A DNA stretch of 64,000 bases, taken from Candidatus Daviesbacteria bacterium. Its GTDB lineage: Bacteria; Patescibacteriota; Microgenomatia; Daviesbacterales; UBA10151. Shown here in pieces: positions 517 through 15,422 of this stretch (within the stretch, counting starts at the first letter, position 1; every line of letters starts with the position of its first letter). The notes under the pieces were generated by a model. That model was not told where the DNA came from, did not search any database, and saw only the letters and a list, made by a program, of their open reading frames with translations. The stretch lies in assembly GCA_028715175.1 (NCBI GenBank), contig JAQUSJ010000001.1, forward strand, positions 546,386 to 610,385, given 5' to 3'. A program made the translations under genes and the position numbers.

Positions 517-1302
517 ATGCATAGTTTACCTGTTTATACTGCGAATAAAAGGAAAGGGAATATAGGTGAAGCATTAGCCCAATACATTTTTTCTAAGTTT
601 TGCTTAGTTCACAAAATTGATGGAAGTAATGATCTTGGAAATGATTTTATCTGTGAGTTAATAAGAGATCAACATCCCACTAATCTATTGTTTTATGTAC
701 AAGTGAAATACACAAATAATCCGCCCAGGATAAAGGAAGAAACAAAGGAATATTGGAAAAGTTCACCAATTCCTGTCTATATTTTTTGGATAAAAGATAA
801 AAAACCACCCGTGATTTTTGATCCTGATCTTTTTAGAAAAGCTAAAACTTACTATAAAAGGTTAACTCCATTACTTCATAATGAAAGCAAACATAAAAAC
901 GAAAAGTTCAAACCTTACAAAGAAATTGATTTTAAAAGAGACCTGATAGTAGATTATGTGAGAACACAATATAAAGAAGGATTTACTCCTATTATAGAAC
1001 CAAGGGCCTTTTTGAACATAGATGAAAAACTGCAAACAGACCTACCTCAGTATGCCTTCTATATTAGGGACGTCATACCTGAATATTCAGAGGATATTTT
1101 ATCTAAGGGTTGGGCTAATTTATTTTCTTTGGCAGTTATTTTATATAAAAAAGGAGACAGAGAGAATTTGGAGCTTGCTCACCACCTAATAGATTTGGCA
1201 ATTACTCTTTATAAAAAAGAAAGAGGAGAAGATGATTCTAGAATCTATAATTCTATGGTTGAATATGAAATAGATATTGCTGATCTACTAAACAGATCTT
1301 AA
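517..1302 (+). CDS. Hypothetical protein, possible PD-(D/E)xK / HamA(DUF4365)-like nuclease fold
   Basis: 261-aa ORF with N-terminal DLGNDFICEL...LFYVQVKYT, a D...E...(Q/E)xK-like arrangement. It is convergent with, and 14 nt from, the SF2 helicase gene. No other recognisable motif. Confidence 0.45.
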   Translation: MHSLPVYTANKRKGNIGEALAQYIFSKFCLVHKIDGSNDLGNDFICELIRDQHPTNLLFYVQVKYTNNPPRIKEETKEYWKSSPIPVYIFWIKDKKPPVIFDPDLFRKAKTYYKRLTPLLHNESKHKNEKFKPYKEIDFKRDLIVDYVRTQYKEGFTPIIEPRAFLNIDEKLQTDLPQYAFYIRDVIPEYSEDILSKGWANLFSLAVILYKKGDRENLELAHHLIDLAITLYKKERGEDDSRIYNSMVEYEIDIADLLNRS

Positions 1303-1316
1303 TTAGCATTAATTAT

Positions 1317-4300
1317 CTAAAGGCTTGAAACAACTCCCAAATTAACAGCATATGTTTCTTGTAAATATAATTCCGTTACAGCAAGCAGTGATAATTGGCT
1401 ATTTGTTGCCTTTGTTTTGGAAAGTCCAGGCTGGACAATAAACACTTTGAGCTCAGGAACTAAAAATGAGCTCTTGTTCTCTATTTCTTCAAGTTTTATC
1501 AAGTCTCCTTTTTCAAATCGGGATACTCCGTATTTATTGTTCCTACTTATTTCTCTTTTACGCATATGCTTCATAAGAACCTTAAAATCGCTTTTCCATA
1601 AAACGCTTTTTTGTGCCTGACCGCAGACAGCATAAAGGTCATCAATGCGTGCAGCTGCTCTCCCTTCTTTTGCGTATTTACAATGGTAGAAGTGGGCAAT
1701 TAAGCGGTTACCCAAAATTTTAAGTGCCACAATGTCAGCAGCTTCATAAGCGTCATCATCGTCAAAAATAATATCGTAGTTGTCAGCGTAACTCTTTTGT
1801 TGGATTTTTTTGAGCACATGATATTGAATTGACCGTTTGTTTCTCTGATAAGTTTGTGACTCTTCAGACAAATTAACACCTGTCCAATCCCACGTTTCAA
1901 TCCTGTTCCTATTAAAAGAGTCTTTCCCTGCATTTTTGACTGTGTATACCTCGTTATAGATGAGAAAAGTTCCATCTTCAAAACGTATTGTCGGAGGGGC
2001 TTTTTGCATCCAATCTGATAACAATTCTTTTTTGCCTCTTACTTGTATGGATACAACTTCTTTGCCGGTGGGTAAATAATCCACTTTTCCTTTGAGGATT
2101 TTAATCATGTATTCTACGCTTTTATTGTTTGTGAAAACCTTAAACTTTAGTGAACCCTGTTTATTATTGTCTGTAAGCTCTAATCCTACTTCATAAAAAG
2201 GTACGACATCTCCTGCAACATCAAATTTGATTACGTCTTCAGCTCTAAGGAAAATATCTTCAGACCATTCAATTGTCAGAGGAACTAAATTCGGTCTTGC
2301 TTGTATTTTCTTGGGGATTATGGCATTTTCAATAATCTGATCAACTTTTATCCTATTATTTAGCAGCTTGGAACCGATATGTTTGCACCATTCTATCCAT
2401 TCAGAGATGTTGTCCGCAACCATATGAGCCCATATTTTCCCTCTCCTTGAACATCCAATGCTTATTTTTTCTCCGTTTTCAAAACCGGTTCCGAAGGCGT
2501 TTACTTTGATTGTATTATTAACTTGTGCCTCTGGCATGCCTTCTCTAACATCTGAACCAACGCGCATTGTATAGCTTGTGGTCCGACTGAAGGCAGGTTT
2601 TAAACCAAGATTGATTAGTATTAGCCTGTTTATTGAAAACAGAGTACGGAATACTTGTTCCCCTTGGACAAGTGCTACATCTTCACCAACAACTGCTTTT
2701 GCCAAAGCTGCATGATAGGAACTTTTGTCAGAACTGTTTATATATAATAGTTGTTGTGTTGGATCCCAATAAAGTAGATATAAATCCCAAACTGTATTAT
2801 ACACACCCTTAGTGTCTGCCCATTCAACAAGTTCGCGGGTGGAAGTAATAAATAAAGCTACCTTGTTTTTATTGTTTATTGTTGGTTTAGCGTAAAGATC
2901 AGACTCCTTAATAAGGTCTTTTATTCTATCCGGCCTCCATCTTATACACTTGGTTTGGTATACAACAGTGCTCATTTTTGGCAAGATATTTTGTATTGGG
3001 ATTTCAGATGGCAAGTCGTCAAAGTCTTCTAAAAACTCTGCTGCCTTTTTTTGTTCTTCAGTAGCTCCTTCACTGAGGTTGTGCAGTATAGAGTTCCAAT
3101 CCGAACCGTCTGCATATAACTCCCGAAGTGCATCTGCAATCTCGGGGTTTGCGACATTTGCGATAATTGTTGCATCTCCAATATTTGGATTGGTTCTGGT
3201 AAAACGTCCTGTAAATTGAATAGTAATAGCCAAGCTTTTATGCGCATCATGCAAAGCGGCAATTTTTAATTCAGGAAAATCAAAGCCTTCTCCAAACATA
3301 TCAACACAAACTATAATTCTTGATTGTCTGGTTCTGAGCTTCTGGAGGGCAGCTGTACGCTCGGTTTTTGTTTGCCTGCTATTAACAACCACTGGTTCAT
3401 ATTTTCTTCCAAGTTGCTGATATATTTTTACAACGTTATTTGCTCGTTCAATGTTGTTTACCCTTGCCATTACTATATGGTCTAAACCTTTTTTTATGTC
3501 CTTTTTCAATTGGGCTATTGCCACTTTGGCAATCGGTTCATCCTGGTTTTCCGTGTTATATACTCTTAGTGAGACAAAATTAATGCGCTTAAAATAACCT
3601 TCATCTTGAGCCTTTTTCAAAGGGAAATCAAATATAATTTTTCCATCAACCTGACGACCATCATTCCGGTAAGGAGTAGCCGTAAATTGGAGAATTATCT
3701 TATCCGTAAAGTTTTTGCGGAACTTTTCCCAAGTAGGGGCTGTTATATGATGGGCTTCGTCAATAAAAAGGGAATGGCATAGATTTGCAACCTGTTTCTG
3801 CATATCTTCATCAAAACCATTTATAACCTGCATAGTTGCCACTATTACGTTGCAAGACTTAAAGAAATGTTCAACCTCAGAGACTGAGCGTAATTTGTGT
3901 TCAAGTATGCCTACCACAGGATATGCCGCTTCTTTACCAACAATCCCTAAACTTTTTAGCAAACCAAGATTTATGAATTTATTTGCTATCTGGGTACGCA
4001 AAGCATCATTCGGAACAACTACCAACAATCTTTCTATGCGTTGGTTGATCAAAAGAGCAAGCATGGTTTCCGTTTTACCTGTACCTGTTGGCATTACAAT
4101 AGTTGCAGGTTTAGTACGTGCCTTCCAGTAGCCTATGGTTGTATGAAGTGCACCACTTTGTGCAGATCTTAAACCTGGTTTATCAGGTTCTTTTTCTTCT
4201 TCAACAAAGAAAAACTGCCCCTTCCAGGATTTACGGACGCTGGTACAATAATCCTGCATAGCTACTTGATTAGTAAGCTCTATAGTGTTTGTTTTAGGTT

Positions 4301-4592
4301 TAAGCCACTGCATTTTTTCCCTCAATGTTAAGAATTGTTCTTCATTGGCTGGGATTGTCGCTTGGGGGGATAATAAAACATCATATTTCCCAGGAATTAT
4401 CTTTTTTGTGCGTAGAACTAAAACATCCTTTTCACCCTTTCGTTGTATAAGTTTTGCTCTAGTATGCCTTATACGCCCATTTGAAATATTAGCATTACAG
4501 ATGATTTCTGGCTGGCTAAGTTGTAGGATATTATTCTTAAATAGCTTTCCTTTAATTAAGTACCTACTGGGTAAGTAGACTGGAGTATCCAT
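1317..4592 (-). CDS. SF2 DEAH/ResIII-type helicase (1091 aa) with a ~600-aa uncharacterised C-terminal domain, possibly a nuclease
   Basis: Walker A VMPTGTGKTET, DEAH box LFIDEAHH, motif III QFTATP, motif VI QFTGRFTR. The C-terminus has an acidic patch DDDDAYEAADIVALK...HCKYAKEGRAAARIDD. Confidence 0.85.
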   Translation of the reverse strand: MDTPVYLPSRYLIKGKLFKNNILQLSQPEIICNANISNGRIRHTRAKLIQRKGEKDVLVLRTKKIIPGKYDVLLSPQATIPANEEQFLTLREKMQWLKPKTNTIELTNQVAMQDYCTSVRKSWKGQFFFVEEEKEPDKPGLRSAQSGALHTTIGYWKARTKPATIVMPTGTGKTETMLALLINQRIERLLVVVPNDALRTQIANKFINLGLLKSLGIVGKEAAYPVVGILEHKLRSVSEVEHFFKSCNVIVATMQVINGFDEDMQKQVANLCHSLFIDEAHHITAPTWEKFRKNFTDKIILQFTATPYRNDGRQVDGKIIFDFPLKKAQDEGYFKRINFVSLRVYNTENQDEPIAKVAIAQLKKDIKKGLDHIVMARVNNIERANNVVKIYQQLGRKYEPVVVNSRQTKTERTAALQKLRTRQSRIIVCVDMFGEGFDFPELKIAALHDAHKSLAITIQFTGRFTRTNPNIGDATIIANVANPEIADALRELYADGSDWNSILHNLSEGATEEQKKAAEFLEDFDDLPSEIPIQNILPKMSTVVYQTKCIRWRPDRIKDLIKESDLYAKPTINNKNKVALFITSTRELVEWADTKGVYNTVWDLYLLYWDPTQQLLYINSSDKSSYHAALAKAVVGEDVALVQGEQVFRTLFSINRLILINLGLKPAFSRTTSYTMRVGSDVREGMPEAQVNNTIKVNAFGTGFENGEKISIGCSRRGKIWAHMVADNISEWIEWCKHIGSKLLNNRIKVDQIIENAIIPKKIQARPNLVPLTIEWSEDIFLRAEDVIKFDVAGDVVPFYEVGLELTDNNKQGSLKFKVFTNNKSVEYMIKILKGKVDYLPTGKEVVSIQVRGKKELLSDWMQKAPPTIRFEDGTFLIYNEVYTVKNAGKDSFNRNRIETWDWTGVNLSEESQTYQRNKRSIQYHVLKKIQQKSYADNYDIIFDDDDAYEAADIVALKILGNRLIAHFYHCKYAKEGRAAARIDDLYAVCGQAQKSVLWKSDFKVLMKHMRKREISRNNKYGVSRFEKGDLIKLEEIENKSSFLVPELKVFIVQPGLSKTKATNSQLSLLAVTELYLQETYAVNLGVVSSL

Positions 4593-5246: not shown

Positions 5247-5951
5247 ATGAAGCAACAAGTATTACTAAAGGTTCCTGTTGAAACAGAGGAGCAAAAGATA
5301 GCAAAATATCACGGATTTGAACTGAAAACAGCAAATGGCTACAAATTAGATGAAGTAGTAAGTGCATTACAGAAAGCCTGTAGACGCGGGGAAGAAGAAA
5401 GGGCCCTCTTTTGGGCATATGAGATGATCCATGGAGGGTATATAGCCTACTTTTGGAGAAGGATGGCTGTAATTGTGGTAGAGGACATAGGTTTAGCTAA
5501 TGTGGAGGCTGCAATTCTTATCAACTCCCTAGCCCAACTAAATGAAAGGGTTAACAGGAAGGACTATGTAGAAACTTTTCACCCGACAATGGCAGTTCTT
5601 TATCTTTGTAGAAGTAACAAATCACGAGAAATTGACTTCGCTAATGACTGGATTGATCGCAACAGAGAGCTTGGATGGAGGGAAAAGATAGAAATTCAAG
5701 ATTTGGACGAACACAATGACCAAGGGAGGCAAAGGATTAAAAAGATGGGAGGTAATTACCAGCGTAAAAAAGATGAGATATTCTATTATGAGTCAATCCT
5801 TCTTAATAATCCTGTTTCAATAGCTAAGGACAAATATAAAAAGCTCGTTTGGCAGTTAAGGAAACTAGATAAAAAGAAACTTAAACTAAAGTATGCACCT
5901 AAAAAGAAGCTAAAAGGATCTATGCGGAGTCAATACCGGACAGCACAGTAG
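5247..5951 (+). CDS. Standalone RarA/MgsA C-terminal-domain-like protein (AAA_assoc_2 + MgsA_C) without an ATPase domain
   Basis: VSALQKACRRGEEERALFWAYEMIHGGYIAYFWRRMAVIVVEDIGLANVEAAI...LYLCRSNKS parallels the RarA C-terminal pattern KSIRGSDPDAALYWLARML..G.DP.FIARRL.I.ASEDIGLADP...LAVAPKSN. The C-terminus is a Lys-rich tail. Confidence 0.5.
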   Translation: MKQQVLLKVPVETEEQKIAKYHGFELKTANGYKLDEVVSALQKACRRGEEERALFWAYEMIHGGYIAYFWRRMAVIVVEDIGLANVEAAILINSLAQLNERVNRKDYVETFHPTMAVLYLCRSNKSREIDFANDWIDRNRELGWREKIEIQDLDEHNDQGRQRIKKMGGNYQRKKDEIFYYESILLNNPVSIAKDKYKKLVWQLRKLDKKKLKLKYAPKKKLKGSMRSQYRTAQ

Positions 5952-6087
5952 GTAGTGATGGTCATTTTCTAGCTTCGGATTGAGGCTAAAGAACAGTGAA
6001 GAAAACTATGAAGATACAGTATAGAAAAGGTCACAGAGGGTATGAGGAGAAAGGATAAGTTTCAATTTACCCTTGCAGCATAGAGAT

Positions 6088-6297
6088 TTATGAAGAGAGG
6101 AGGTCAGAAGAAGTGTTACCAAATACTTTTGCGATTTTGTTTAATGTTTTAAGAGTAGGGTTTTTCCTTTTAGCATGCTCAATTTCTATTATTGTCTTTG
6201 GATCAACATCAGCCAGCTCTGCAAGTTTTTCTTGGGTTAAATCTTTATCTTTCCTTAACTTTCTGATTTTCTCACCTAATTTTCTTAAGCTCGCCAT
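6088..6297 (-). CDS. XRE-family helix-turn-helix transcriptional regulator
   Basis: LRKLRKDKDLTQEKLAELADVDPKTIIEIE... is a Cro/C1-type HTH; 69 aa. Confidence 0.7.
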   Translation of the reverse strand: MASLRKLGEKIRKLRKDKDLTQEKLAELADVDPKTIIEIEHAKRKNPTLKTLNKIAKVFGNTSSDLLSS

Positions 6298-6400
6298 TGA
6301 CAGAATTATGGAATATATGCCAGACTGTGAACAGGAAATATATTCCAGATTTACGCATGAAATTAAGGCTGAAAGACGACTTGCAGGATTGCAGTAAAAT

Positions 6401-6721
6401 ATGAGGCTAGCGAATACTAAAATAGTAATAGGCTTATTAGTTTTGATTGCTGTTTCGGTTGCCTACTTCTTTCTGATTTATCTTCCGAAACAACAAGAAT
6501 TTAGATTACGACAACAGGAAACTACTCTTAGAAAACAAACTTATGAACTCTGCTTGAAAGAATGGAATGGTATGTATGATAAGGCAGGAGAACTTTTTGT
6601 AAGGGAAAACCCAGAAATTACAAAACAGGAATTGGGAGACAAATTGATACCTATCATCAATAAGAAAGATGAGATTATAACAAATTGTGTTGAGAAAAGG
6701 CTTCAAGAATATAAAAAATAG
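6401..6721 (+). CDS. Hypothetical membrane-anchored protein
   Basis: N-terminal TM helix IVIGLLVLIAVSVAYFFLIYL; no known domain. Confidence 0.45.
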   Translation: MRLANTKIVIGLLVLIAVSVAYFFLIYLPKQQEFRLRQQETTLRKQTYELCLKEWNGMYDKAGELFVRENPEITKQELGDKLIPIINKKDEIITNCVEKRLQEYKK

Positions 6722-6732
6722 GAGGTGAAAAG

Positions 6733-6969
6733 ATGAAAAGAACTATAATTTGGGCTATTGTACTGGTTATTTTTATACTGATCCTGTTCCAACAGTTTTA
6801 CCGATATGGTGAGCTTTCAATCAAAGAGGCCGAAGTTGAAAAACAGCTTTGGAAGGAGCGTTCTAACTATTTCCAGCTGTTGGATAAATACTGTAAAGAC
6901 AAGGGTTTCCAGAGTGCTCAGACTAATAAGGATGGTGTAATAACCTGCATTCCTTTAGATGGAAAGTAA
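6733..6969 (+). CDS. Hypothetical small membrane protein
   Basis: N-terminal TM helix TIIWAIVLVIFILILF; the RBS ggaggtg lies upstream. Confidence 0.45.
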   Translation: MKRTIIWAIVLVIFILILFQQFYRYGELSIKEAEVEKQLWKERSNYFQLLDKYCKDKGFQSAQTNKDGVITCIPLDGK

Positions 6970-7564
6970 AATGAAGGCTAAAGTAAAGTATTTGATCTTA
7001 GCAATTGTGATGCTAATTATTGTTCTAACTGCTCAAAAGCTGTATTTAACCCCTTCTCCGCAGAAACCACCCAATCTACCACCTGAAGCAACAAAAGCCG
7101 TTCAGTTGGAGTTAGAGTACCCTTATGAAGTCAAAAATGTAGCGGATCAGGAGAAAGTAGCGGTTTTACAACTTGTTAGGACTTTTGAAACTTTACAATA
7201 TGAAAGAAAAGCAAAAGAAGTATTAGCCTTATTCACTCCCCCCTCTAACGACAACGAGAGAAATGATTTGGATTTTCTGGAGGGAAAAGACTTGAATTCA
7301 AGCCCAAGACTTTATGTTACAGCAGGATATCCATGGTCTCTAAATTGGTACATGGTAAGAAAGATAGAGAAACAAAATGATAAGTTGCAAATAACTTTGA
7401 AAGAATTAAGAACTTATTATGCTAATTCTGATGGTGATTATACTGGTGATAACCAAAACCTGATCCTTGTAATTATTGAAAGTAGTGGAAGCTATAAAAT
7501 TGATCAATATTTCCATGAAAAGCTCTCGCCAAATGTGAATCGTAAATATGAGGGATTTAATTGA
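6959..7564 (+). CDS. Hypothetical membrane-anchored protein
   Basis: N-terminal TM helix YLILAIVMLIIVLTA. It overlaps the previous gene by 11 nt, consistent with a translationally coupled operon. Confidence 0.5.
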   Translation: MESKMKAKVKYLILAIVMLIIVLTAQKLYLTPSPQKPPNLPPEATKAVQLELEYPYEVKNVADQEKVAVLQLVRTFETLQYERKAKEVLALFTPPSNDNERNDLDFLEGKDLNSSPRLYVTAGYPWSLNWYMVRKIEKQNDKLQITLKELRTYYANSDGDYTGDNQNLILVIIESSGSYKIDQYFHEKLSPNVNRKYEGFN

Positions 7565-7750
7565 CAATGTCTGTTATAGAACCTGCCACCCCGACACAGT
7601 AGCTGATTGTTCAGTAGATAGCAAGGTAAGTATTATCTCACTCTAAATGTGCTTCATTTTAAGCCATATTTCCAACTGCAAAACTTTGCATTTGGATTGA
7701 TACAACAATCTAAACCTTGACAAAGATGTAAAAATTTTGTACTGTCAATA

Positions 7751-8227
7751 TTGATGAATATAAGTATTAATATGTTGCCCATAAAAATTTTCACTTCCGA
7801 TAAAAGGAAATTTCAAGAAATATCTAAGATAGTTGATCACTCGGAATTTCAAGAAGAATTTTTGAGACTAGCAAAAAAGTGGCGAGGGAAAACCATAGAA
7901 AGTTTAGACGAGGATTACCAAAAAGATATACTCGGTTCACTTTCCAAACTGAAGTTGCCAAATTCCCTTTATGATCTTCTATCGGATTGTGTTATTTCTG
8001 GCATTCTTTGGAAAAATTATAACTTAAGTGGTACAGAGATTTTAGAAATTCTCTTGGTTCGTTCAAGAAAATCTAAGACTTTAACAGACTTTCCCAGAGA
8101 TAGAGATTGGTATTGGAGGCATAAGTTTGGTGAAGGATATGGTGCAATCGCAAAAAGGGATGATGTGGGAAAGCACATGGTATTGAATGCAATTAAACGC
8201 TACAAGACAATGACTGGTAACGGATAA
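7751..8227 (+). CDS. Hypothetical protein
   Basis: 158-aa ORF with no recognisable motif. Confidence 0.4.
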   Translation: MMNISINMLPIKIFTSDKRKFQEISKIVDHSEFQEEFLRLAKKWRGKTIESLDEDYQKDILGSLSKLKLPNSLYDLLSDCVISGILWKNYNLSGTEILEILLVRSRKSKTLTDFPRDRDWYWRHKFGEGYGAIAKRDDVGKHMVLNAIKRYKTMTGNG

Positions 8228-8298
8228 TTCCCTAATCTAATTACTCCCTAAAACTATTAAGCTTCTATAAACTCCAATTAAAACAAGTTCTGATTAGC

Positions 8299-8532
8299 AT
8301 GAAATCTAATACATTTGAATTAACTGATTTTGAGGTTGCCACGATCTTGATTATTGAAGGATTTAATCTTCTAGAAGTTGACAAGTCTAATCCTCACAAA
8401 GCCAGCTTTATATTTGAAAACAATCCCAGAATAGCCGAAGTCATCAATTCCTACTTTAATGATAAGTTATCTGTTAATCCACGCATGCTCTTCATGGAAA
8501 GTAAAACATTAAAAAACAGACTGTATTTGTAG
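8299..8532 (+). CDS. Hypothetical protein
   Basis: 77-aa ORF with no recognisable motif. Confidence 0.35.
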   Translation: MKSNTFELTDFEVATILIIEGFNLLEVDKSNPHKASFIFENNPRIAEVINSYFNDKLSVNPRMLFMESKTLKNRLYL

Positions 8533-8791
8533 ATTTTAAGAGTCTCTGCAGCGACAAGAAAGTCATAGATAGTCTTTCAGCATACCGTATGACTTAAAAC
8601 TGCGGTCTGGCCTAAAAGGTAACTTAGGGCTCTGGTGGGGAGCGTCGCTAGTACCAGTATCAGAAAGACTAGTTACCGCCGAAAGAGAAATCTTTTGAAA
8701 CGTTAGACCCTTCTTGTAGCGATACAAGCTAACAATGACGTTCCCTGATAACTAAATAATTTCTATTTAGGAGATCAGGGAGGGAAGGCAT

Positions 8792-8959
8792 ATGGGGATG
8801 AGGAAAAAAATTGAAAGTAAACAAGTTAACAAAGAAGATACTAGTTTAGTCAGGATAAATACTGGCTTAAAGGATTCGCTTAAAGAAAAGGCAGCAGCCA
8901 AAAAAACAACCATCAAAGCTCTAGTAGAGGGTGCAGTTGCAGAGATTGAAGGGATTTAA
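8792..8959 (+). CDS. Small ribbon-helix-helix (CopG/Arc-like) protein, 55 aa, below the ORF-table cut-off
   Basis: Hand-translated as MGMRKKIESKQVNKEDTSLVRINTGLKDSLKEKAAAKKTTIKALVEGAVAEIEGI. The N-terminal beta-strand (SLVRINT) plus a two-helix pattern fits an RHH fold. It is preceded by ggagatcagggaggg and sits immediately upstream of the recombinase module. Confidence 0.4.
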   Translation: MGMRKKIESKQVNKEDTSLVRINTGLKDSLKEKAAAKKTTIKALVEGAVAEIEGI

Positions 8960-8961
8960 GG

Positions 8962-9147
8962 TTGGTTATGTTGACTAAAGAGGAAGTTGCTGAATTTAGG
9001 AGGTTGGTTCTAGAAGTTTATGGGATTAAGCTAACAACTGGAGAAGCTACGGATCAAGGTTCACGTCTAATTCAATTATTTGAGCTCATCTTGAAAAATA
9101 AGAAGCTTGTAATGATGGATGGAAAGGTGGTACAAAGTAATGAGTAG
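8962..9147 (+). CDS. Hypothetical small protein (possible recombination directionality / accessory factor)
   Basis: 61-aa ORF directly upstream of, and overlapping, the serine recombinase start by 29 nt. Confidence 0.3.
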   Translation: MVMLTKEEVAEFRRLVLEVYGIKLTTGEATDQGSRLIQLFELILKNKKLVMMDGKVVQSNE

Positions 9148-10789
9148 CAATAATTTAAATGACAATGATATGGATAATCTAGCTTTGGCTTACTGCCGGA
9201 AGTCAGAAGAAGATAAAAAGAGACAGATACTATCCCTTGATGATCAAGTTGAAGAATGTAATAAGCTAGTTGACGATCACAGTCTCACTTTAGCAACTCC
9301 TCATTTTAAAGAAGAGAAATCAGCAAAAAAAGCAGGCATGAGAATTGAGTTTTACAGAATGCTTAGCCTGCTTAAAAGCGGTAAGGCTAAGGTAATAGTC
9401 TGCTGGAATGCTAACCGTCTAGCCAGAAATATGATAGATGGTAGTGAAATAATTGATTTAGTCCAGCATAAAGAGCTTAGGATTATTACACCATACACGC
9501 AGTATGATTACTCCAACTGGTTCATGCTTCTAATAGAATTCGGAATGTCTACAGACTTCAGCTTGAAGCTCTCTAAAGACGTCAAAAGGGGCTTAGAATC
9601 AAAAGTAGCTAAAGGAATAAGGCCAGGCTTAACGCCACTTGGATATTTGAATGTAGGAGAAATTAAGGGTGAAAAAAGTATTGAGGTAGACCCTCAGAGA
9701 TATGAATTATGTGCTAGATGGTGGGGAATGATGTTAACCGGTAAATATACTGTTGAGCAGTCTTTACAGGAAATAACAGTAATGGGTTTGCGGGATAGGA
9801 GAGGAGATAAAATCTCCAGAACTGCTGCTTTTAAAATTTTCCATAATATCTTTTATGCAGGGTACTTTAACTATTTAGGTCAAATCCATAAAGGAATCCA
9901 AAAGCCAATGATTACACTTGATGAGTTCAATAAGGTTCAGGACATCATTACTGGTAAATTTGGTGGTAGATATAAACATGAAACCGAAAGGAAATCTCTT
10001 CCTCTATCTGGATTTATAAAATGTTCTGAATGCGGAGCTACTATCACCTGTGAGCGAAAAACCAAGCATTACAAAAACGGTACAACCCAGGAATTTAGCT
10101 GGTACAGATGCAAGAAAAACAAAAATCACCCTTGTAGCCAACTGTATATGCCTTCAGAAGAGTTGGAAAAACAAGTAGGAGCGTATATAAACAATCTGGA
10201 ACTTGATCCAAGATTTATTGGTTGGGTTAAGACTGTTTTAAGAAGAAGGAATCAAGACGAGTTTGAATTTGACCGCAAACAAAGGGAATTACTGATGAAA
10301 AAACTTCAAGAGCTAAGCAGTAGGAAAGAGATAATCTTCGGGATGAAAATTGACGGACTTTACCAAGACGCAGAATACAAACAAAAAGTTGCAGAAGTTT
10401 TAAGGGAAGAAGCAGATATTAAGGAAAAACTCAATTCCAATAGAATATCTTATTGGGAAGGGGTTATTGACCAAACTTTAGATTTTGCTCAAACTGTATT
10501 TGAATTATTCAATAATAAAGATCCTTATGTCAAACGGTTAGTACTTCAAATTCTTGGGTCGGACCTAAAAATAAGGGACAAATATCTTTATCTTGAAGCT
10601 AAATCTGTATTTATCTTCTTAAGAAACAAACAAAACACCCTTTTTGAAAAACACGGAATAGTCGGACTCAAAGATGGGCTGCTACGACAACCTAAACAGG
10701 ATAATTATATCCTTCCAATTCCTCTTGGAGCGGGTGAGGGGAGTCGAACCCCTTACGTCCACTTTGGAAAAGTGGCATTCTACCGGTGA
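9119..10789 (+). CDS. Large serine recombinase (resolvase/invertase N-terminal domain + recombinase domain + zinc ribbon)
   Basis: N-terminal LAYCRKSEEDKKRQILSLDDQ...AKVIVCWNANRLARN resembles the catalytic-Ser resolvase domain. The C-terminal region has CSECGATITC...YRCKK zinc ribbon and coiled-coil. Its last ~21 codons read through the tRNA-Gly gene on the opposite strand. Confidence 0.85.
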   Translation: MERWYKVMSSNNLNDNDMDNLALAYCRKSEEDKKRQILSLDDQVEECNKLVDDHSLTLATPHFKEEKSAKKAGMRIEFYRMLSLLKSGKAKVIVCWNANRLARNMIDGSEIIDLVQHKELRIITPYTQYDYSNWFMLLIEFGMSTDFSLKLSKDVKRGLESKVAKGIRPGLTPLGYLNVGEIKGEKSIEVDPQRYELCARWWGMMLTGKYTVEQSLQEITVMGLRDRRGDKISRTAAFKIFHNIFYAGYFNYLGQIHKGIQKPMITLDEFNKVQDIITGKFGGRYKHETERKSLPLSGFIKCSECGATITCERKTKHYKNGTTQEFSWYRCKKNKNHPCSQLYMPSEELEKQVGAYINNLELDPRFIGWVKTVLRRRNQDEFEFDRKQRELLMKKLQELSSRKEIIFGMKIDGLYQDAEYKQKVAEVLREEADIKEKLNSNRISYWEGVIDQTLDFAQTVFELFNNKDPYVKRLVLQILGSDLKIRDKYLYLEAKSVFIFLRNKQNTLFEKHGIVGLKDGLLRQPKQDNYILPIPLGAGEGSRTPYVHFGKVAFYR

Positions 10790-10800
10790 ATTACACCCGC
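10726..10800 (-). tRNA. tRNA-Gly (anticodon UCC)
   Basis: Reverse complement GCGGGTG TA ATTC ACCGGTA GAAT G CCACT TTTCCAA AGTGG ACGTA AGGGG TTCGACT CCCCT CACCCGC T CCA. Clean cloverleaf; CCA encoded. Confidence 0.8.
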
Positions 10801-10856
10801 GAAGTAAATTATATTGTACTCAAAAATGCTCTCTTTTTTCAAGAAAATAATGGATA

Positions 10857-11594
10857 TCAGTAAATTTCGTAGCTTAGGGTAACTATTACTTTAATCTCGG
10901 AAGACCCTGGTTCCACTGCTGTTTTTAAGTTTACACTTTCAGCCGGTGCCCCAACCGCCATCCGCAACGGCTGAGGGCTTAAGTCAAAGTTTTCCGAGTA
11001 ATTAACTATTCTGCCCAACCTGAATCCGGCAATTCTAGCAGCACTTTCAGCTTTCTTTTTGGCCGCAGCCACTGCTTTTTGTCTGGCTTCATCTTCTAAT
11101 TTGCTTTTATCATCTACATCAAAACTGATTCCTCCTATTTGATTTGCTCCGTTTCCTGTAGCCGAATCTATCACTTGATTAACATTATCAATACTGCGGA
11201 CTTTTATTGACAAATTAGTTGAAGCCGAGTAACCGGTAATGCGTTGTGAGCCACTCGAATAGTCATAAGTAGGATTAATGTTGTAGCTTGCTGTCTGAAT
11301 ATCTTTTTGTTCAACACCAGATTTTTTAATGGCAGCTGCCACATTATTGATAGTGGAATTGATCTGGTCTTGCGCGACTTTGACTGTATTGGCCTCCGCT
11401 TGAATACCGACAACCAGAATTGCCATATCCGGTTTTGCAACTGCAACACCTTCACCCGAAACATTAAAAGTATCTGTTTTAGTTGTGTTTACACTATTTA
11501 CTGAAAAGGGGATTGGCCCAAAAACTTTAGTGTAAATGAGTAAAAGCACAAAAAATGCCAGAATGGAAATGATAAAAGTGGCAAGACTTCTCAT
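10857..11594 (-). CDS. SIMPL-domain (DUF541) periplasmic/membrane-anchored protein
   Basis: Signal/TM N-terminus, then GVAVAKPDMAILVVGIQAEANTV...INPTYDY, characteristic of the SIMPL/26-kDa periplasmic immunogenic protein family. Confidence 0.65.
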   Translation of the reverse strand: MRSLATFIISILAFFVLLLIYTKVFGPIPFSVNSVNTTKTDTFNVSGEGVAVAKPDMAILVVGIQAEANTVKVAQDQINSTINNVAAAIKKSGVEQKDIQTASYNINPTYDYSSGSQRITGYSASTNLSIKVRSIDNVNQVIDSATGNGANQIGGISFDVDDKSKLEDEARQKAVAAAKKKAESAARIAGFRLGRIVNYSENFDLSPQPLRMAVGAPAESVNLKTAVEPGSSEIKVIVTLSYEIY

Positions 11595-12733: not shown

Positions 12734-12814
12734 GTCGAATCGTTAGATCCGCCTCCGCTTCGCTTCGGCCAGGTCTTCTACTTTCGGCCGAAACTCTAAA
12801 ATTGTCGAATGATA

Positions 12815-12835
12815 ACTATAGTATGTAGAACTACA
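12815..12835. promoter_or_regulatory. Candidate C-box-like operator (palindromes ACTATAGT and TGTAG-AA-CTACA) overlapping the -35 position upstream of the C-protein gene; -10 TATAAT at 12849..12854
   Basis: Palindromes read directly from the sequence. The -10 sits 12 nt upstream of ATG 12866. Controller proteins of R-M systems bind inverted repeats at this position. Confidence 0.35.
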
Positions 12836-12865
12836 ATTAGCAAATACGTATAATTCATTCGTTAT

Positions 12866-13081
12866 ATGAAGAAAGATATCCTGATTAGATTTGGTAAAAA
12901 GATTCGTGAAGAACGGAAGAAGCTAGGTTTGTCGCAAGAAGAATTTGCTGATAGGGCAAGTGTTCATAGAACATATATAGGAATGGTCGAGCGTGGAGAG
13001 AAAAATATCACCCTTGAAAGCATCGAAAAAGTGATTAAAGCGCTCAACCTGAAATTATCGGACTTTTTCAGAGACTTTTAA
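12866..13081 (+). CDS. XRE-family HTH regulator, likely controller (C) protein of the adjacent R-M system
   Basis: LGLSQEEFADRASVHRTYIGMVERGEKNITLESIEKV; 71 aa. Its stop is 1 nt before the next gene, a C-R-M operon layout. Confidence 0.7.
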   Translation: MKKDILIRFGKKIREERKKLGLSQEEFADRASVHRTYIGMVERGEKNITLESIEKVIKALNLKLSDFFRDF

Positions 13082-13082
13082 T

Positions 13083-13913
13083 ATGACATCCTTTGATCAG
13101 TTTTTAAGTAAGTTGGAACAAAGTTTTAAAGGCAAGAACCCGATTATTTGCAGCGTATTAGCTAACGTTTTCTCTATGCGGATCATTGGCAACAAAACGC
13201 ATGGAGATCTTGCCGAAATTGCCCTTACTGAATACATCAATCAATTCGTTGACGGTTTTTCTGCACGTCATACCGGCAAGGAAAAATTTAGAGCAAAAGA
13301 ATTTGAGGAAGACATTAGAGTTAAAGATCTTAAGACGAAATCAGAAATTCCTGTGAGCATAAAAACTTATGGTGCTGGTCCATTGCAATTATCTACAAAT
13401 AAAGACGGTTCTATGTTTGCACTACTACAAAAGATTGTGAACGATCAAAACATTAGCGACATAGGTAAAATCAGAAAAATTTTGAATGGACGCTGTTTTG
13501 CAGATTTCAGCGCAGTAAATGTTCTTCCACTCATTTATAACGAGAGGCAAATGAATTTCAAAATTGTGGTGTTTAACTTAATTCATGCTTATCAATCTGT
13601 TAGACAAATCAAATTTTTCCCGCCAAGAAGATTGGGATCTAAACAAACATTCCCTATATATAAATTCTATACTGGAAAGGGGCAATACATTTTTGAAGTA
13701 AGATACGGTGGAGTAAGTGCTAATGCACTACAAAGAGGTATGTGGACACACACGGAAAATGCTAATCCCTACTTTAGGGAACTGCTTGCAGGCTCATATA
13801 GAATCAATGAGCCATTAATCAATTTAATTTCAAAGATCCTTGTTTCTCCAAAAGAGAAGCACGAAGAAATATTGAAGCTATTCCCGAAATCTAAAGAAAA
13901 ATCTGTAATATAA
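13083..13913 (+). CDS. Putative Type II restriction endonuclease
   Basis: 276-aa orphan ORF lying between the C-protein and methyltransferase genes in an operon. No conserved domain recognised; the call rests on position only. Confidence 0.45.
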   Translation: MTSFDQFLSKLEQSFKGKNPIICSVLANVFSMRIIGNKTHGDLAEIALTEYINQFVDGFSARHTGKEKFRAKEFEEDIRVKDLKTKSEIPVSIKTYGAGPLQLSTNKDGSMFALLQKIVNDQNISDIGKIRKILNGRCFADFSAVNVLPLIYNERQMNFKIVVFNLIHAYQSVRQIKFFPPRRLGSKQTFPIYKFYTGKGQYIFEVRYGGVSANALQRGMWTHTENANPYFRELLAGSYRINEPLINLISKILVSPKEKHEEILKLFPKSKEKSVI

Positions 13914-13967
13914 CTCTCGATATATATAATACCCGGTTTCTGCTAAAATAATAACGAGGATATTGAC

Positions 13968-15161
13968 ATGCAAACTCAGGGTATTAAATATACAGGATCA
14001 AAAAGAGAAATAATACCTACTCTACTTAAATTAGTAGCTTCGTTAAATGTTAGAACCATTTTTGATGGATTCTCTGGTACCACAAGAGTTTCGCAAGCTT
14101 TCAAAAATGCCGGTTATACTGTATACGCAAATGATATTGCCATATGGTCTAAAGTTTTTGGGCAGTGCTATCTCCTGAATAGAAAATCCGCCTCTTATTA
14201 TCTACCATTGATTGACCATCTAAATAAAATTCCGGGTAAACCAGGCTGGTTTTCAGAACACTATGGCGGAGAAGCAAATGGTGGTAGTGCCGTAAATAAA
14301 GACGGAAGAAAAAGAATGTGGCAATTACACAATACTATGAAGCTTGATGCTATACGAGAGGAAATCGATAAAATTGCTAATGACGAAATTGAAAAATCAG
14401 TACTTCTCACTAGTCTAATTTTAGCGATGGATAAAGTTGATAGTTCTGTTGGTCACCACGTTTCTTATCTAAAACAATGGGCTTCTCGTGCTTACAATTT
14501 AATGAAAATGGAGATTCCAAGATTAATAATCGATGATAAAAATCACAAGGTTTTCAATGATGATATTTTTGATTTACTTGATCAAGTAGAAGTTGATTTG
14601 GCTTATTATGATCCACCATACGGTTCATCTAATGAACTCATGCCCCCATCGCGTGTGCGATACGCTTCTTACTACCATATTTGGAAAACTGTTTGTATTA
14701 ACGATAAACCAAAAGTTGTAGGTGTTGCCAATCGACGCGAAGATGTAAGCGATGTGATTGCCGGATCCGTTTTTGAGGAGTTTAGGAAAAACGAAGACGG
14801 TAGATATATTGTTATAAACGCTCTTAAGAAACTAATAGAAAAGACGAAAGCAAAATATATTGTTTTGTCATATAGCAATAATGGAAGAGCAACGCTTGAT
14901 GCAATTCTTGAAATTTTACAAGAACTTAACATACCATGTTCTATTTTTGAAATGGATTATAAGAAAAACGTTATGGCAACAATGACGTGGACAAATGAAT
15001 GGCTTAACGGAGGAAATGCGCATAATCTACAAAATAAAGAATTTCTTTTCCTGATACAAAAGGGTGGAGTTGCTAAGACGGTAGGAGAAATTAAGATTGA
15101 AAAAATTAACTTGCGAGAAATAATAGATAAGAATCAACAGAAATTACCCTATTTTAATTAG
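13968..15161 (+). CDS. DNA methyltransferase (N6-adenine or N4-cytosine; DPPY motif)
   Basis: Motif I FDGFSGTTRV (FxGxG) and motif IV LAYYDPPYGSS; 397 aa. Confidence 0.8.
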   Translation: MQTQGIKYTGSKREIIPTLLKLVASLNVRTIFDGFSGTTRVSQAFKNAGYTVYANDIAIWSKVFGQCYLLNRKSASYYLPLIDHLNKIPGKPGWFSEHYGGEANGGSAVNKDGRKRMWQLHNTMKLDAIREEIDKIANDEIEKSVLLTSLILAMDKVDSSVGHHVSYLKQWASRAYNLMKMEIPRLIIDDKNHKVFNDDIFDLLDQVEVDLAYYDPPYGSSNELMPPSRVRYASYYHIWKTVCINDKPKVVGVANRREDVSDVIAGSVFEEFRKNEDGRYIVINALKKLIEKTKAKYIVLSYSNNGRATLDAILEILQELNIPCSIFEMDYKKNVMATMTWTNEWLNGGNAHNLQNKEFLFLIQKGGVAKTVGEIKIEKINLREIIDKNQQKLPYFN

Positions 15162-15261
15162 GAAATTAATCATTTGCTGCATTTTTTGACTAAATAATCT
15201 TTATTCAACCGCCCCCATCCGCGCAGAACCAATCCAAGCTCAATTCTGCGGATTCACTTTC

Positions 15262-15335
15262 GGTCGGGGTGGAGAGAATTGAACTCTCTACATCTGCGTC
15301 CCAAACGCAGCGGTCTACCGATGACCTACACCCCG
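15262..15335 (-). tRNA. tRNA-Pro (anticodon UGG)
   Basis: Reverse complement CGGGGTG TA GGTC ATCGGTA GACC G CTGCG TTTGGGA CGCAG ATGTA GAGAG TTCAATT CTCTC CACCCCG A CC. Confidence 0.8.
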
Positions 15336-15422
15336 TGGTGCCCAGGGAGGGACTCGAACCCTCACGTCCTTGCGGACAACAGCTCTTAAGGCTGCACTGT
15401 CTACCAATTCCAGCACCTGGGC
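15336..15422 (-). tRNA. tRNA-Leu (anticodon UAA), long variable arm
   Basis: Reverse complement GCCCAGG TG CTGGAATTGGTAGACAG ... GCAGC CTTAAGA GCTGT TGTCCGCAAGGACGT GAGGG TTCGAGT CCCTC CCTGGGC A CCA. It abuts tRNA-Pro with 0-nt spacing. Confidence 0.8.

What the first reader, a model, noticed from the sequence alone, without database searches (positions are those of the whole stretch)
12815..15161. C-R-M Type II restriction-modification operon with a C-box-like operator, adjacent to tRNA-Pro/tRNA-Leu
A 71-aa XRE HTH gene is followed after 1 nt by a 276-aa orphan ORF, the putative REase, and then by a DPPY methyltransferase (FxGxG ... DPPYG). Upstream, the palindromes ACTATAGT and TGTAG-AA-CTACA overlap the -35 position of a TATAAT -10, as in controller-protein systems. 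The location next to tRNA-Pro/Leu suggests horizontal acquisition.
Basis: partly seen in the sequence, partly recalled or inferred. Interest (0 to 1): 0.55.

Follow-up and report, generated by a model that had tools for sequence, protein, structure and literature searches.

The report
C-controlled Type II restriction-modification cassette
This is an ordinary but intact, horizontally acquired restriction-modification defence cassette (regulator, DNA-cutting enzyme, protective methylase) inserted between pyrD and a tRNA gene in a Candidatus Daviesbacteria genome; its cutting enzyme belongs to a widespread family that public genome annotations still call 'hypothetical'.

Summary
Window 12866-15161 encodes three genes. 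The first is a 71-aa controller (C) protein, about 50% identical to C.BclI. The second is a 276-aa protein matching a REBASE-derived Type II REase profile end to end (2.5e-65). The third is a 397-aa alpha-class (D12) N6-adenine methyltransferase. The R gene is followed by the same M family in essentially all 80 related loci, which span many phyla. Upstream of C lies a 33-bp double-operator C-box (12810-12842) conserved in 13 loci. The exact 18-nt operator core occurs on at least 120 metagenome contigs and is followed by a C homologue on 111 of them. There it precedes REases of many families (TaqI-, EcoRI-, ScaI-, MunI-, SwaI-like), so it is a portable regulatory module. M has its own conserved extended -10 promoter. 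A close relative has an empty site (pyrD abutting tRNA-Pro), which defines a 2.43-kb insert (12779-15209). The recognition sequence remains unknown. Verdict: a new member of a known kind, of modest interest.

The parts
12779..15209 (.). Window-specific insert (2,431 bp) carrying the whole cassette
   Evidence: Left flank up to 12778 and right flank from 15210 align to Daviesbacteria relative L084, which carries a different cargo. L085 has pyrD abutting tRNA-Pro. GC is 34.6% against 38.9% for the window.
12810..12842 (+). C-box: 33-bp double operator TGATAACTATAGTATGTAGAACTACAATTAGCA (family consensus TGC-TA-ACTATAGT-ATGTAGA-ACTAAAGT-TA-GCA)
   Evidence: Near-invariant block in 13 distinct loci upstream of C homologues. 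12 of 16 symmetric pairs around a central T. Unique in the window. Nucleotide homology to other cassettes starts at 12809-12813.
12815..12822 (+). Distal operator OL, perfect palindrome ACTATAGT (centre about -42.5 from the inferred start site)
   Evidence: The position relative to the promoter is inferred.
12830..12837 (+). Proximal operator OR, degenerate copy ACTACAAT (family ACTAAAGT), centre about -27.5
   Evidence: It lies 15 bp centre-to-centre from OL. A weaker 3' copy is what is described for PvuII-like C-boxes (PMC2632904).
12826..12831 (+). -35-like hexamer TAGAAC (3 of 6), inside the C-box
   Evidence: 17-bp spacing to TATAAT. Conserved as part of the C-box. Its function is inferred.
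12849..12854 (+). -10 hexamer TATAAT of the CR promoter
   Evidence: TATAAT or TATACT is found 5-8 bp after the C-box in most related loci. It ends 11 nt before the ATG with no Shine-Dalgarno sequence, so the mRNA is predicted to be near-leaderless (inferred).
12866..13081 (+). C gene: 71-aa controller protein (HTH_3)
   Evidence: Pfam HTH_3 8e-17. PADLOC Control_protein 1.1e-21. C.BclI 1.6e-15, C.AhdI 4.9e-11, C.Esp1396I 4.9e-8.
13083..13913 (+). R gene: 276-aa Type II restriction endonuclease, putative PD-(D/E)XK variant (E45, D77, S92-x-K94, Q102)
   Evidence: PADLOC REase_II PDLC03568 2.5e-65 over residues 4-265. Followed by the same M family in related loci. Invariant residues across 25-82% identity. 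AF2 model pLDDT 85.7 with alpha-beta-beta-beta topology. Weak Foldseek hits are almost all PD-(D/E)XK nucleases.
13941..13949 (+). Extended -10 (TGCTAAAAT) of a separate M promoter in the R-M spacer
   Evidence: TGnTA(A/C)AAT is conserved in the 50-60-bp R-M spacers of close-clade loci. Function is inferred.
13956..13960 (+). Shine-Dalgarno GAGGA for M
   Evidence: Read from the sequence, 7 nt before the ATG.
13968..15161 (+). M gene: 397-aa alpha-class (D12) N6-adenine DNA methyltransferase
   Evidence: Pfam PF02086 3.3e-22. PADLOC MTase_II PDLC03342 5.9e-139. YTGSK at aa 8-12, FDGFSG at aa 32-37 and DPPY at aa 215-218.
15262..15422 (-). tRNA-Pro(TGG) and tRNA-Leu(TAA): conserved flank; the 3' end of tRNA-Pro faces the cassette
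   Evidence: ARAGORN. The same tRNA pair follows pyrD in relatives L084-L086.
12780..12790 (+). Left copy of an 11-bp imperfect direct repeat (ACTTTCGGCCG); the right copy ACTTTCGGTCG at 15256-15266 spans the tRNA-Pro 3' end
   Evidence: family D17. The copies sit at the left insert boundary and at the tRNA junction. This could be an att-like duplication or chance; it is unresolved.

Best explanation
This is an intact, horizontally acquired, controller-regulated Type II restriction-modification cassette. SHOWN: gene identities, conserved R-M linkage, the conserved operator and the empty site. INFERRED: (1) M is transcribed from its own extended -10 promoter (TGCTAAAAT) in the R-M spacer, independently of C, so the genome is N6-adenine methylated at the target site first. 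(2) C and R form one operon from a promoter with a weak -35 (TAGAAC) embedded in the C-box and a TATAAT -10. The mRNA has a 4-6-nt leader without a Shine-Dalgarno sequence, so C is translated poorly. R is translationally coupled to C (stop, 1 nt, ATG). (3) As C accumulates, a dimer binds the perfect distal operator ACTATAGT at about -42 and activates transcription. This raises C and the REase after a delay. (4) At high C, a second dimer is recruited cooperatively to the degenerate proximal operator (ACTACAAT, about -27), occludes the -35 and caps expression. (5) The REase cleaves unmethylated incoming DNA, probably as a PD-(D/E)XK enzyme using E45, D77, S92-x-K94 and Q102. The recognition sequence is unknown. 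The unit from operator to M stop (about 12809-15161) is shared at 66-83% nucleotide identity with genomes from many phyla. It sits here in a 2.43-kb insert between pyrD and tRNA-Pro.
For: Family hits: PADLOC control protein, REase_II and MTase_II, all near full length; HTH_3, MethyltransfD12; C.BclI, C.AhdI, C.Esp1396I. Linkage: R is followed by the same M family in about 75 of 80 loci from CPR phyla, Elusimicrobia, Acidobacteria, Planctomycetes, Verrucomicrobia, Proteobacteria and Cyanobacteria. Operator: a conserved 33-bp near-palindrome upstream of C. The exact 18-mer is on at least 120 metagenome contigs, and 111 of 120 have a C homologue right after it. The ORF after C falls in 29 clusters, including RE_TaqI, EcoRI, RE_ScaI, RestrictionMunI, RE_Bsp6I and SwaI-like, so that slot is an REase slot. 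Architecture and positions match the published C-box model: a strong distal activator site, a weak proximal site occluding -35, and leaderless C mRNAs (PMC2632904 and PMC2275141). M promoter: conserved TGnTAnAAT in the R-M spacers. No terminator-like site lies between R and M. Nuclease: invariant E45, D77, S92, K94 and Q102 fall on helix 39-55, strand 78-82 and strand 88-97 of a confident model. Foldseek top hits are Hjc, HinP1I, SwaI, HincII, DpnI and MunI. HGT: empty site in L085, alternative cargo in L084, and boundaries at 12778/12779 and 15209/15210. R and M are 82% identical to a Woykebacteria copy, while pyrD of two other Woykebacteria MAGs is only 63% identical.
Confidence: 0.85

Rival explanations
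1. Same cassette, but C acts essentially as an autorepressor only. The TATAAT promoter would be constitutively active, and C binding to the OL/OR block simply shuts it down, with no activation step.
For: There is a consensus -10 (TATAAT or TATACT, conserved), whereas characterised C-activated promoters lack recognisable -10 elements (PMC2632904). The operator-to-ATG spacer is longer (23-26 nt) than the canonical 17-18. C-protein mechanisms do vary, for example the Kpn2I roadblock (PMC6237814, title and abstract).
Against: The -35 is poor (3 of 6) and lies between the operators. A perfect distal site is centred near -42 and a degenerate proximal site near -27, which is exactly the geometry of activator-repressor C-boxes. 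Glu25 of the SQEE motif aligns with C.AhdI E30, one of the two residues mutated together (E30A-F34Q) in a C.AhdI variant that cannot activate transcription.
Confidence: 0.3
2. The system is a decayed or domesticated remnant. The methyltransferase would function as a solitary epigenetic enzyme, and the 276-aa gene would be inactive or serve another role.
For: No functional data exist. The window's OR and outer operator bases deviate from the family consensus. Several relatives show erosion of the cassette, including truncated C genes and a shortened R in L083.
Against: All three ORFs are full length relative to thousands of homologues. All family-invariant R residues and the M motifs I and IV are intact. 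The promoter elements are intact.
Confidence: 0.1
3. The HTH protein and the 276-aa protein are a toxin-antitoxin-like or other two-gene module that is merely adjacent to an orphan Dam-like methylase.
For: The HTH protein has sub-threshold similarity to HipB/Y4mF-type antitoxins (TIGR03070, 53 bits against a cutoff of 71.65). The 276-aa protein has no Pfam or NCBIfam family.
Against: R co-occurs with this M family even where the HTH gene is absent. The HTH protein scores best against control-protein models and solved C proteins. The same HTH/operator module precedes bona fide REase families. M is not a Dam equivalog (15 bits against 115) and is absent from this locus in relatives.
Confidence: 0.03

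Closest known systems
C.BclI / C.AhdI / C.Esp1396I / C.PvuII-type controller proteins with PvuII-like double-operator C-boxes
   Same: A roughly 70-80-aa single HTH_3 protein with the HRTYI..vERG.rN recognition-helix signature (about 50% identity to C.BclI). The gene lies immediately upstream of, and is coupled to, the REase gene. The roughly 33-35-bp C-box has a strong distal palindromic operator, a conserved asymmetric centre, a weaker proximal copy and complementary outer trinucleotides (TGC...GCA). It overlaps the -35, and the leader is very short.
   Different: The operator core is the even palindrome ACTATAGT, not GACT-N3-AGTC. The centre reads ATGTA rather than GTG. The -10 is a consensus TATAAT or TATACT. 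The operator-to-ATG spacer is 23-26 nt instead of 17-18. I could not match the motif to a numbered motif class of Sorokin et al., because the logos and supplement are not held.
Alpha-class (D12, PF02086) N6-adenine methyltransferases such as Dam, M.EcoRV and the M.FokI halves
   Same: Motif X-like YxGSK at the N-terminus, and motif I FxGxxG before motif IV DPPY with the target-recognition region between them. There is a PADLOC hit to a 646-aa two-domain MTase model over one half. That this model resembles M.FokI is my own knowledge and was not tested.
   Different: It is not a Dam (GATC) equivalog (TIGR00571 scores 15 bits against 115). It is about 100 aa longer than Dam or M.EcoRV. It has no solved relative by sequence. 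The target sequence is unknown.
PD-(D/E)XK Type II REases with a non-acidic residue in the (D/E)xK position (Cfr10I/NgoMIV SxK; HinP1I/MspI Q/NxK), from my own knowledge of those families
   Same: The predicted alpha-beta-beta-beta core has Glu on the first helix, Asp at the start of the second strand and S-x-K on the third strand. All are invariant family-wide. HinP1I is the best full-length Foldseek REase hit (259 aligned columns).
   Different: There is no significant sequence or fold match and no Pfam or NCBIfam model. The extra invariant C-terminal block ANALQRGxW has no assigned role.
tRNA-associated genomic islands
   Same: The insertion is next to a tRNA 3' end, is absent from close relatives, has alternative cargo at the same spot and has slightly lower GC.
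   Different: The 2.43-kb insert has no integrase. There is only an 11-bp imperfect repeat at the boundaries. The nearest recombinase (9119-10789) is 2 kb away, beyond two conserved housekeeping genes, next to a different tRNA.

Membership tests
R-M controller (C) proteins | Small (about 70-100 aa) single-domain XRE/HTH_3 protein with sequence similarity to experimentally characterised C proteins | tested here: met
   71 aa. HTH_3 8e-17. PADLOC Control_protein 1.1e-21. C.BclI 1.6e-15, C.AhdI 4.9e-11, C.Esp1396I 4.9e-8 are the top PDB hits.
R-M controller (C) proteins | Gene immediately upstream of, co-oriented with and (nearly) overlapping the REase gene | tested here: met
   One nucleotide separates the C stop from the R start. 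The same arrangement occurs in 13 or more related loci.
R-M controller (C) proteins | Conserved C-box with two operators upstream of the C gene, overlapping the promoter | tested here: met
   A 33-bp conserved block with a perfect OL and a degenerate OR. It is unique in the window. The exact core is followed by a C homologue on 111 of 120 metagenome contigs.
R-M controller (C) proteins | Binds the C-box and activates, then represses, CR transcription | not testable with these tools
   Requires EMSA or footprinting and reporter or in vitro transcription assays.
Type II restriction endonuclease (PD-(D/E)XK superfamily) | Homology to proteins catalogued as Type II REases | tested here: met
   PADLOC REase_II PDLC03568 2.5e-65, residues 4-265 against profile positions 6-264 of 281. 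There is no Pfam, NCBIfam or PDB sequence match.
Type II restriction endonuclease (PD-(D/E)XK superfamily) | Conserved genomic linkage to a cognate DNA methyltransferase | tested here: met
   The same M family is adjacent in about 75 of 80 loci: co-directional downstream in most and convergent in 3.
Type II restriction endonuclease (PD-(D/E)XK superfamily) | Catalytic E...(P)D...(D/E)xK motif on an alpha-beta-beta-beta-alpha-beta core | tested here: inconclusive
   E45, D77, S92-x-K94 and Q102 are invariant down to 25% identity and lie on the expected secondary-structure elements. However, the second acid is Ser, and the model coordinates could not be inspected.
Type II restriction endonuclease (PD-(D/E)XK superfamily) | Significant structural similarity to a solved PD-(D/E)XK nuclease | tested here: inconclusive
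Type II restriction endonuclease (PD-(D/E)XK superfamily) | Sequence-specific double-strand cleavage blocked by cognate methylation | not testable with these tools
   Needs biochemistry. Palindrome avoidance in host DNA gave no clear candidate site.
Alpha-class (D12) N6-adenine DNA methyltransferase | PF02086 match above threshold, with motif I (FxGxG) N-terminal to motif IV (DPPY) | tested here: met
   79.9 bits against a cutoff of 22. FDGFSG at aa 32-37 and DPPY at aa 215-218.
Dam (GATC) orthologue / lineage-conserved orphan methylase | Meets the TIGR00571 Dam subfamily threshold and is conserved at this locus across the lineage | tested here: not met
   15.2 bits against a cutoff of 114.85. 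The gene is absent between pyrD and tRNA-Pro in L084, L085 and L086.
Integrase-mediated tRNA-targeting genomic island | Absent in relatives at the same site (empty site) | tested here: met
   In L085 pyrD runs directly into tRNA-Pro. L084 has a different cargo between the same flanks.
Integrase-mediated tRNA-targeting genomic island | Integrase gene inside the island and clear att direct repeats that include part of the tRNA | tested here: not met
   The insert has no recombinase. There is only a 10-of-11 repeat, ACTTTCGG(C/T)CG, of which 5 nt lie in the tRNA.

The most novel reading that the evidence does not exclude
The 276-aa enzyme may represent a structurally uncharacterised REase family with a specificity not yet known. 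The family has more than 3,500 homologues and occurs in 464 species genomes. No source that names a listed homologue calls it anything but 'hypothetical protein', and it is absent from Pfam, NCBIfam and the PDB. Its cassette, together with a portable C/operator module (operator core ACTATAGTATGTAGAAC) serving at least 29 different downstream gene clusters, may spread without any recombinase of its own. It appears to land preferentially at tRNA 3' flanks in streamlined CPR genomes, where tRNA read-through could replace C control once C is truncated.
Probability: 0.25. Interest if true: 0.5.

Novelty: new member of a known kind. Interest (0 to 1): 0.3.

Why it matters
On its own this is a textbook C-regulated Type II R-M system, so the biological surprise is small. 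It has practical value in three ways. First, it assigns a function to a large protein family that public annotation leaves as 'hypothetical'. Second, it defines a new C-box sequence class (ACTATAGT core with a conserved TATAMT -10) that can be used to find REase genes by position in metagenomes. Six of the ten clusters tested behind it were recognisable REase families, and three had no match in either library, so they are candidate new REases. Third, it documents R-M exchange between CPR bacteria and other phyla with a precisely mapped insertion, which is relevant to how ultra-small symbionts defend themselves and to a possible source of new restriction specificities.

Tried and rejected
1. 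Recognition-site inference from palindrome avoidance, using a maximal-order Markov model on the window, 213 kb of close-clade loci and 376 kb of distant-clade loci. No palindrome was specifically depleted in the window. AATATT, TTTAAA and GATATC are low in pooled loci, but this is not specific enough to call.
2. Sequence and profile searches of the REase against PDB gave only noise. The MTase against PDB gave nothing.
4. tblastn of the REase against PLSDB plasmids and INPHARED phages found no match. The MTase has only homologues below 35% identity on plasmids, annotated generically. IMG/VR has only 4 contigs, all from the distant clade.
5. A full-text search for ACTATAGT plus 'restriction' returned irrelevant primer hits. 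The Sorokin et al. supplement is not held.
6. The tool's promoter scan proposed ATGATA-17-TACAAT (12809-12837). I rejected it because TACAAT is window-specific and not conserved in relatives.
7. The 'atatatataat' just after the R stop (TATAAT at 13925-13930) is not conserved, so I preferred the conserved TGCTAAAAT as the M promoter.
8. The toxin-antitoxin reading of the HTH protein was rejected.
Full report
**Observation.**
- C ORF: 12866-13081, 71 aa.
- After the C stop there is a single T and then the ATG of the 276-aa ORF (13083-13913).
- After a 54-nt spacer comes the 397-aa ORF (13968-15161), with FDGFSG at aa 32-37 and DPPY at aa 215-218.
- ACTATAGT (12815-12822), TGTAG-AA-CTACA (12824-12835) and TATAAT (12849-12854) lie upstream of C.
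- tRNA-Pro and tRNA-Leu lie on the minus strand at 15262-15422.

Taken alone, the 8-mer palindrome is a chance-level event in 64 kb (expected 0.84). Its significance comes from comparative data, described below.

**Gene identities.** The window matches a Candidatus Daviesbacteria (CPR) MAG.
- **C protein.** It is an HTH_3 protein. Its best matches are PADLOC control-protein models (1.1e-21). Among solved structures the three best are the controller proteins C.BclI (1.6e-15, about 50% identity over 66 residues), C.AhdI and C.Esp1396I.
- **276-aa protein.** It has no Pfam, NCBIfam or PDB sequence relative. It does match the REBASE-derived PADLOC model REase_II PDLC03568 end to end (2.5e-65).
- **397-aa protein.** It is a D12-class N6-adenine methyltransferase (PF02086 3.3e-22; PADLOC MTase_II 5.9e-139) with the alpha-class motif order. 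It is far below the Dam equivalog threshold.

**Is the 276-aa protein an endonuclease?** Four independent lines say yes.
- **Homologues and linkage.** It has 3,568 homologues, and every one of the listed homologues that a source names is called 'hypothetical protein'. Relatives occur in 464 species-representative genomes. In essentially every one of the 80 fetched loci with enough sequence, it is adjacent to the same methyltransferase family. These loci come from many CPR phyla, Elusimicrobia, Acidobacteria, Planctomycetes, Verrucomicrobia, Proteobacteria, Cyanobacteria and others.
- **Invariant residues.** Across the family, down to 25% identity, the invariant residues include E45, D77, S92-x-K94 and Q102. 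In a confident AlphaFold model (pLDDT 85.7, pTM 0.81) these lie on helix 39-55, the start of strand 78-82 and strand 88-97. That is the PD-(D/E)XK layout with an SxK variant.
- **Fold.** Foldseek against PDB gives no significant hit. The weak top hits are nevertheless almost exclusively PD-(D/E)XK nucleases: Hjc, HinP1I, SwaI, SPARDA nuclease, HincII, DpnI, MunI and NhoI.
- **Position.** The slot directly after this type of C gene is consistently occupied by REases (see the portable-module section below).

**The operator.** I aligned the regions upstream of C homologues from 13 distinct loci. This shows a near-invariant 33-bp block, TGC-TA-ACTATAGT-ATGTAGA-ACTAAAGT-TA-GCA, followed 5-8 bp later by TATAAT or TATACT and 11-13 nt later by the ATG.
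- The block is a near-palindrome (12 of 16 pairs) around a central T.
- It has a perfect distal operator (ACTATAGT), a one-mismatch proximal copy 15 bp away, and complementary outer trinucleotides.
- This is the architecture described for PvuII-like C-boxes: Z-X-N-X-GTG-x-n-x-Z*, with the 5' copy closer to consensus (PMC2632904).

The window's version (12810-12842) matches the 27-nt consensus with 2 mismatches and is unique in the window (0 of 100 shuffles). It overlaps the inter-operator spacer, the -35-like TAGAAC (12826-12831, 17 bp from the -10) and the degenerate proximal operator ACTACAAT (12830-12837).

With an inferred start site near 12861, OL is centred near -42.5 and OR near -27.5. 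This is the geometry of activation from the distal site and repression by -35 occlusion from the proximal site (PMC2632904 and PMC2275141). There are two differences from studied systems. Here the -10 is a conserved consensus, and the operator-to-ATG spacer is 23-26 nt instead of 17-18. C might therefore act mainly as a repressor, which is the main mechanistic rival.

- A C homologue follows it on 111 of the 120 contigs.
- 84 contigs have a co-directional ORF right after C. These ORFs fall into 29 unrelated clusters, and only 12 ORFs belong to the present REase family.
- I scanned representatives of the next ten clusters. Six hit Pfam REase families (RE_TaqI, EcoRI, RE_ScaI, RestrictionMunI, RE_Bsp6I, SwaI-like), and seven hit PADLOC REase_II models. 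Three had no match in either library.

This ties the operator to the C protein. It shows that the module is exchanged among R-M systems, and it supports the REase assignment by position.

**Methyltransferase expression.** In the close clade the 50-60-bp R-M spacer carries a conserved extended -10, TGnTA(A/C)AAT. In the window this is TGCTAAAAT at 13941-13949, followed by GAGGA at 13956-13960. No terminator-like site separates R and M. M is therefore probably made both from its own C-independent promoter and by read-through. This fits the need to methylate before restriction begins. In the distant clade (about 45% identity), which lacks C, the R and M ORFs abut or overlap.

**Horizontal acquisition.**
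- The closest pyrD relatives are Daviesbacteria.
- L085 (pyrD 81% identical) has the same gene order as the window: SIMPL, pyrD, tRNA-Pro, tRNA-Leu, membrane protein, RRM, Fic. Its pyrD stop runs straight into tRNA-Pro and it has no R-M genes.
- L084 (82% identical) shares the window's flanking spacers on both sides but carries a 1,917-aa gene instead.
- The window-specific insert is 12779-15209.
- Nucleotide homology to cassettes in other genomes (66-83%) runs from 12809-12813 to about 15150.
- Cassette GC is 34.6% against 38.9% for the window.
- R and M are 82% identical to a Woykebacteria copy, whereas pyrD of two other Woykebacteria MAGs is only 63% identical to the window's.
- The insert contains no recombinase. 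An 11-bp imperfect repeat, ACTTTCGG(C/T)CG, sits at the left boundary and at the tRNA-Pro junction, but I cannot distinguish it from chance.

**tRNA adjacency is recurrent.** In 12 of 33 close-clade loci, a co-oriented tRNA ends within about 10-320 bp upstream of the cassette, and eight different tRNA identities are involved. The figure is 3 of 47 in the distant clade. In several of these loci the C gene is missing or reduced to its last 20-90 nt, leaving R directly behind the tRNA.

**What remains unknown.** The recognition sequence is unknown, and palindrome avoidance was uninformative. The REase has no homologue in the plasmid or phage collections. A REBASE search and methylome or cleavage experiments are needed.

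**Verdict.** This is an intact, horizontally acquired C-R-M Type II system of a known kind. The operator definition is refined, and the cassette has a precisely mapped insertion site. Its REase family deserves annotation.

Noticed in passing
L005, L006, L007, L008, L009, L011, L014, L015, L016, L017, L018, L030 (upstream of the R match, about locus positions 3400-4000); also L042, L050, L066: The cassette recurrently lies just 3' of a co-oriented tRNA gene. This holds in 12 of 33 close-clade loci and involves 8 different tRNA identities. C is often deleted or truncated to its last 20-90 nt (L005, L008, L017, L024), so R would be read through from the tRNA. This suggests a tRNA-flank insertion hot spot or a shared recombination mechanism.
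   Followed up: partly
L091-L210 (metagenome contigs carrying AACTATAGTATGTAGAAC): The same C/operator module precedes at least 29 unrelated downstream ORF clusters. Several of these (for example representatives L139_362_1318 at 318 aa and L105_3330_4379 at 349 aa) have no PADLOC or Pfam hit, which makes them candidate novel REases identifiable by position alone.
   Followed up: partly
window 9119-10800: A 556-aa large serine recombinase (Resolvase, Recombinase and Zn_ribbon_recom domains) has an ORF that runs into the 3' end of tRNA-Gly(TCC) (10726-10800, -). Relatives L084 and L085 have other genes beside the same tRNA-Gly. This is probably a second, independent integrated element. No flanking direct repeats of 16 nt or longer were found in 5900-10900.
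   Followed up: partly
window 517-4592: A DUF4365 protein (517-1302, +) lies next to a convergent 1,091-aa ResIII/DEAD-helicase protein (1317-4592, -). This is a possible further defence or restriction-like gene pair upstream of the recombinase.
   Followed up: no
L084 9245-14998: At the same pyrD/tRNA-Pro spacer where the window has the R-M cassette, a Daviesbacteria relative carries a 1,917-aa surface-type protein with Big_1, GH172, LysM and CarboxypepD_reg domains. The spacer is therefore a cargo-swapping hot spot.
   Followed up: partly
L021 (about 150-220) and L031 (about 3690-3743): Two members of the same R-M family are paired with different C proteins whose upstream regions carry classical GACT-N3-AGTC-type C-boxes (tgtcacttatagtctgtag; tgtgactcatagtccatagactcatagg). 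This shows C-module replacement within one R-M family.
   Followed up: no
window 12764-12792: The inverted repeat TTCGGCC-N15-GGCCGAA lies just after pyrD and may be its terminator. It straddles the left insert boundary (12778/12779) and includes the left copy of the 11-bp boundary repeat.
   Followed up: no
L083 5158-7194: The closest M homologue (88% aa identity) is preceded by a 262-aa ORF. Nucleotide homology to the window's C-R region is interrupted there (12889-13418 and 13685 onward), so this is probably a deletion derivative of C-R, an example of cassette erosion.
   Followed up: no
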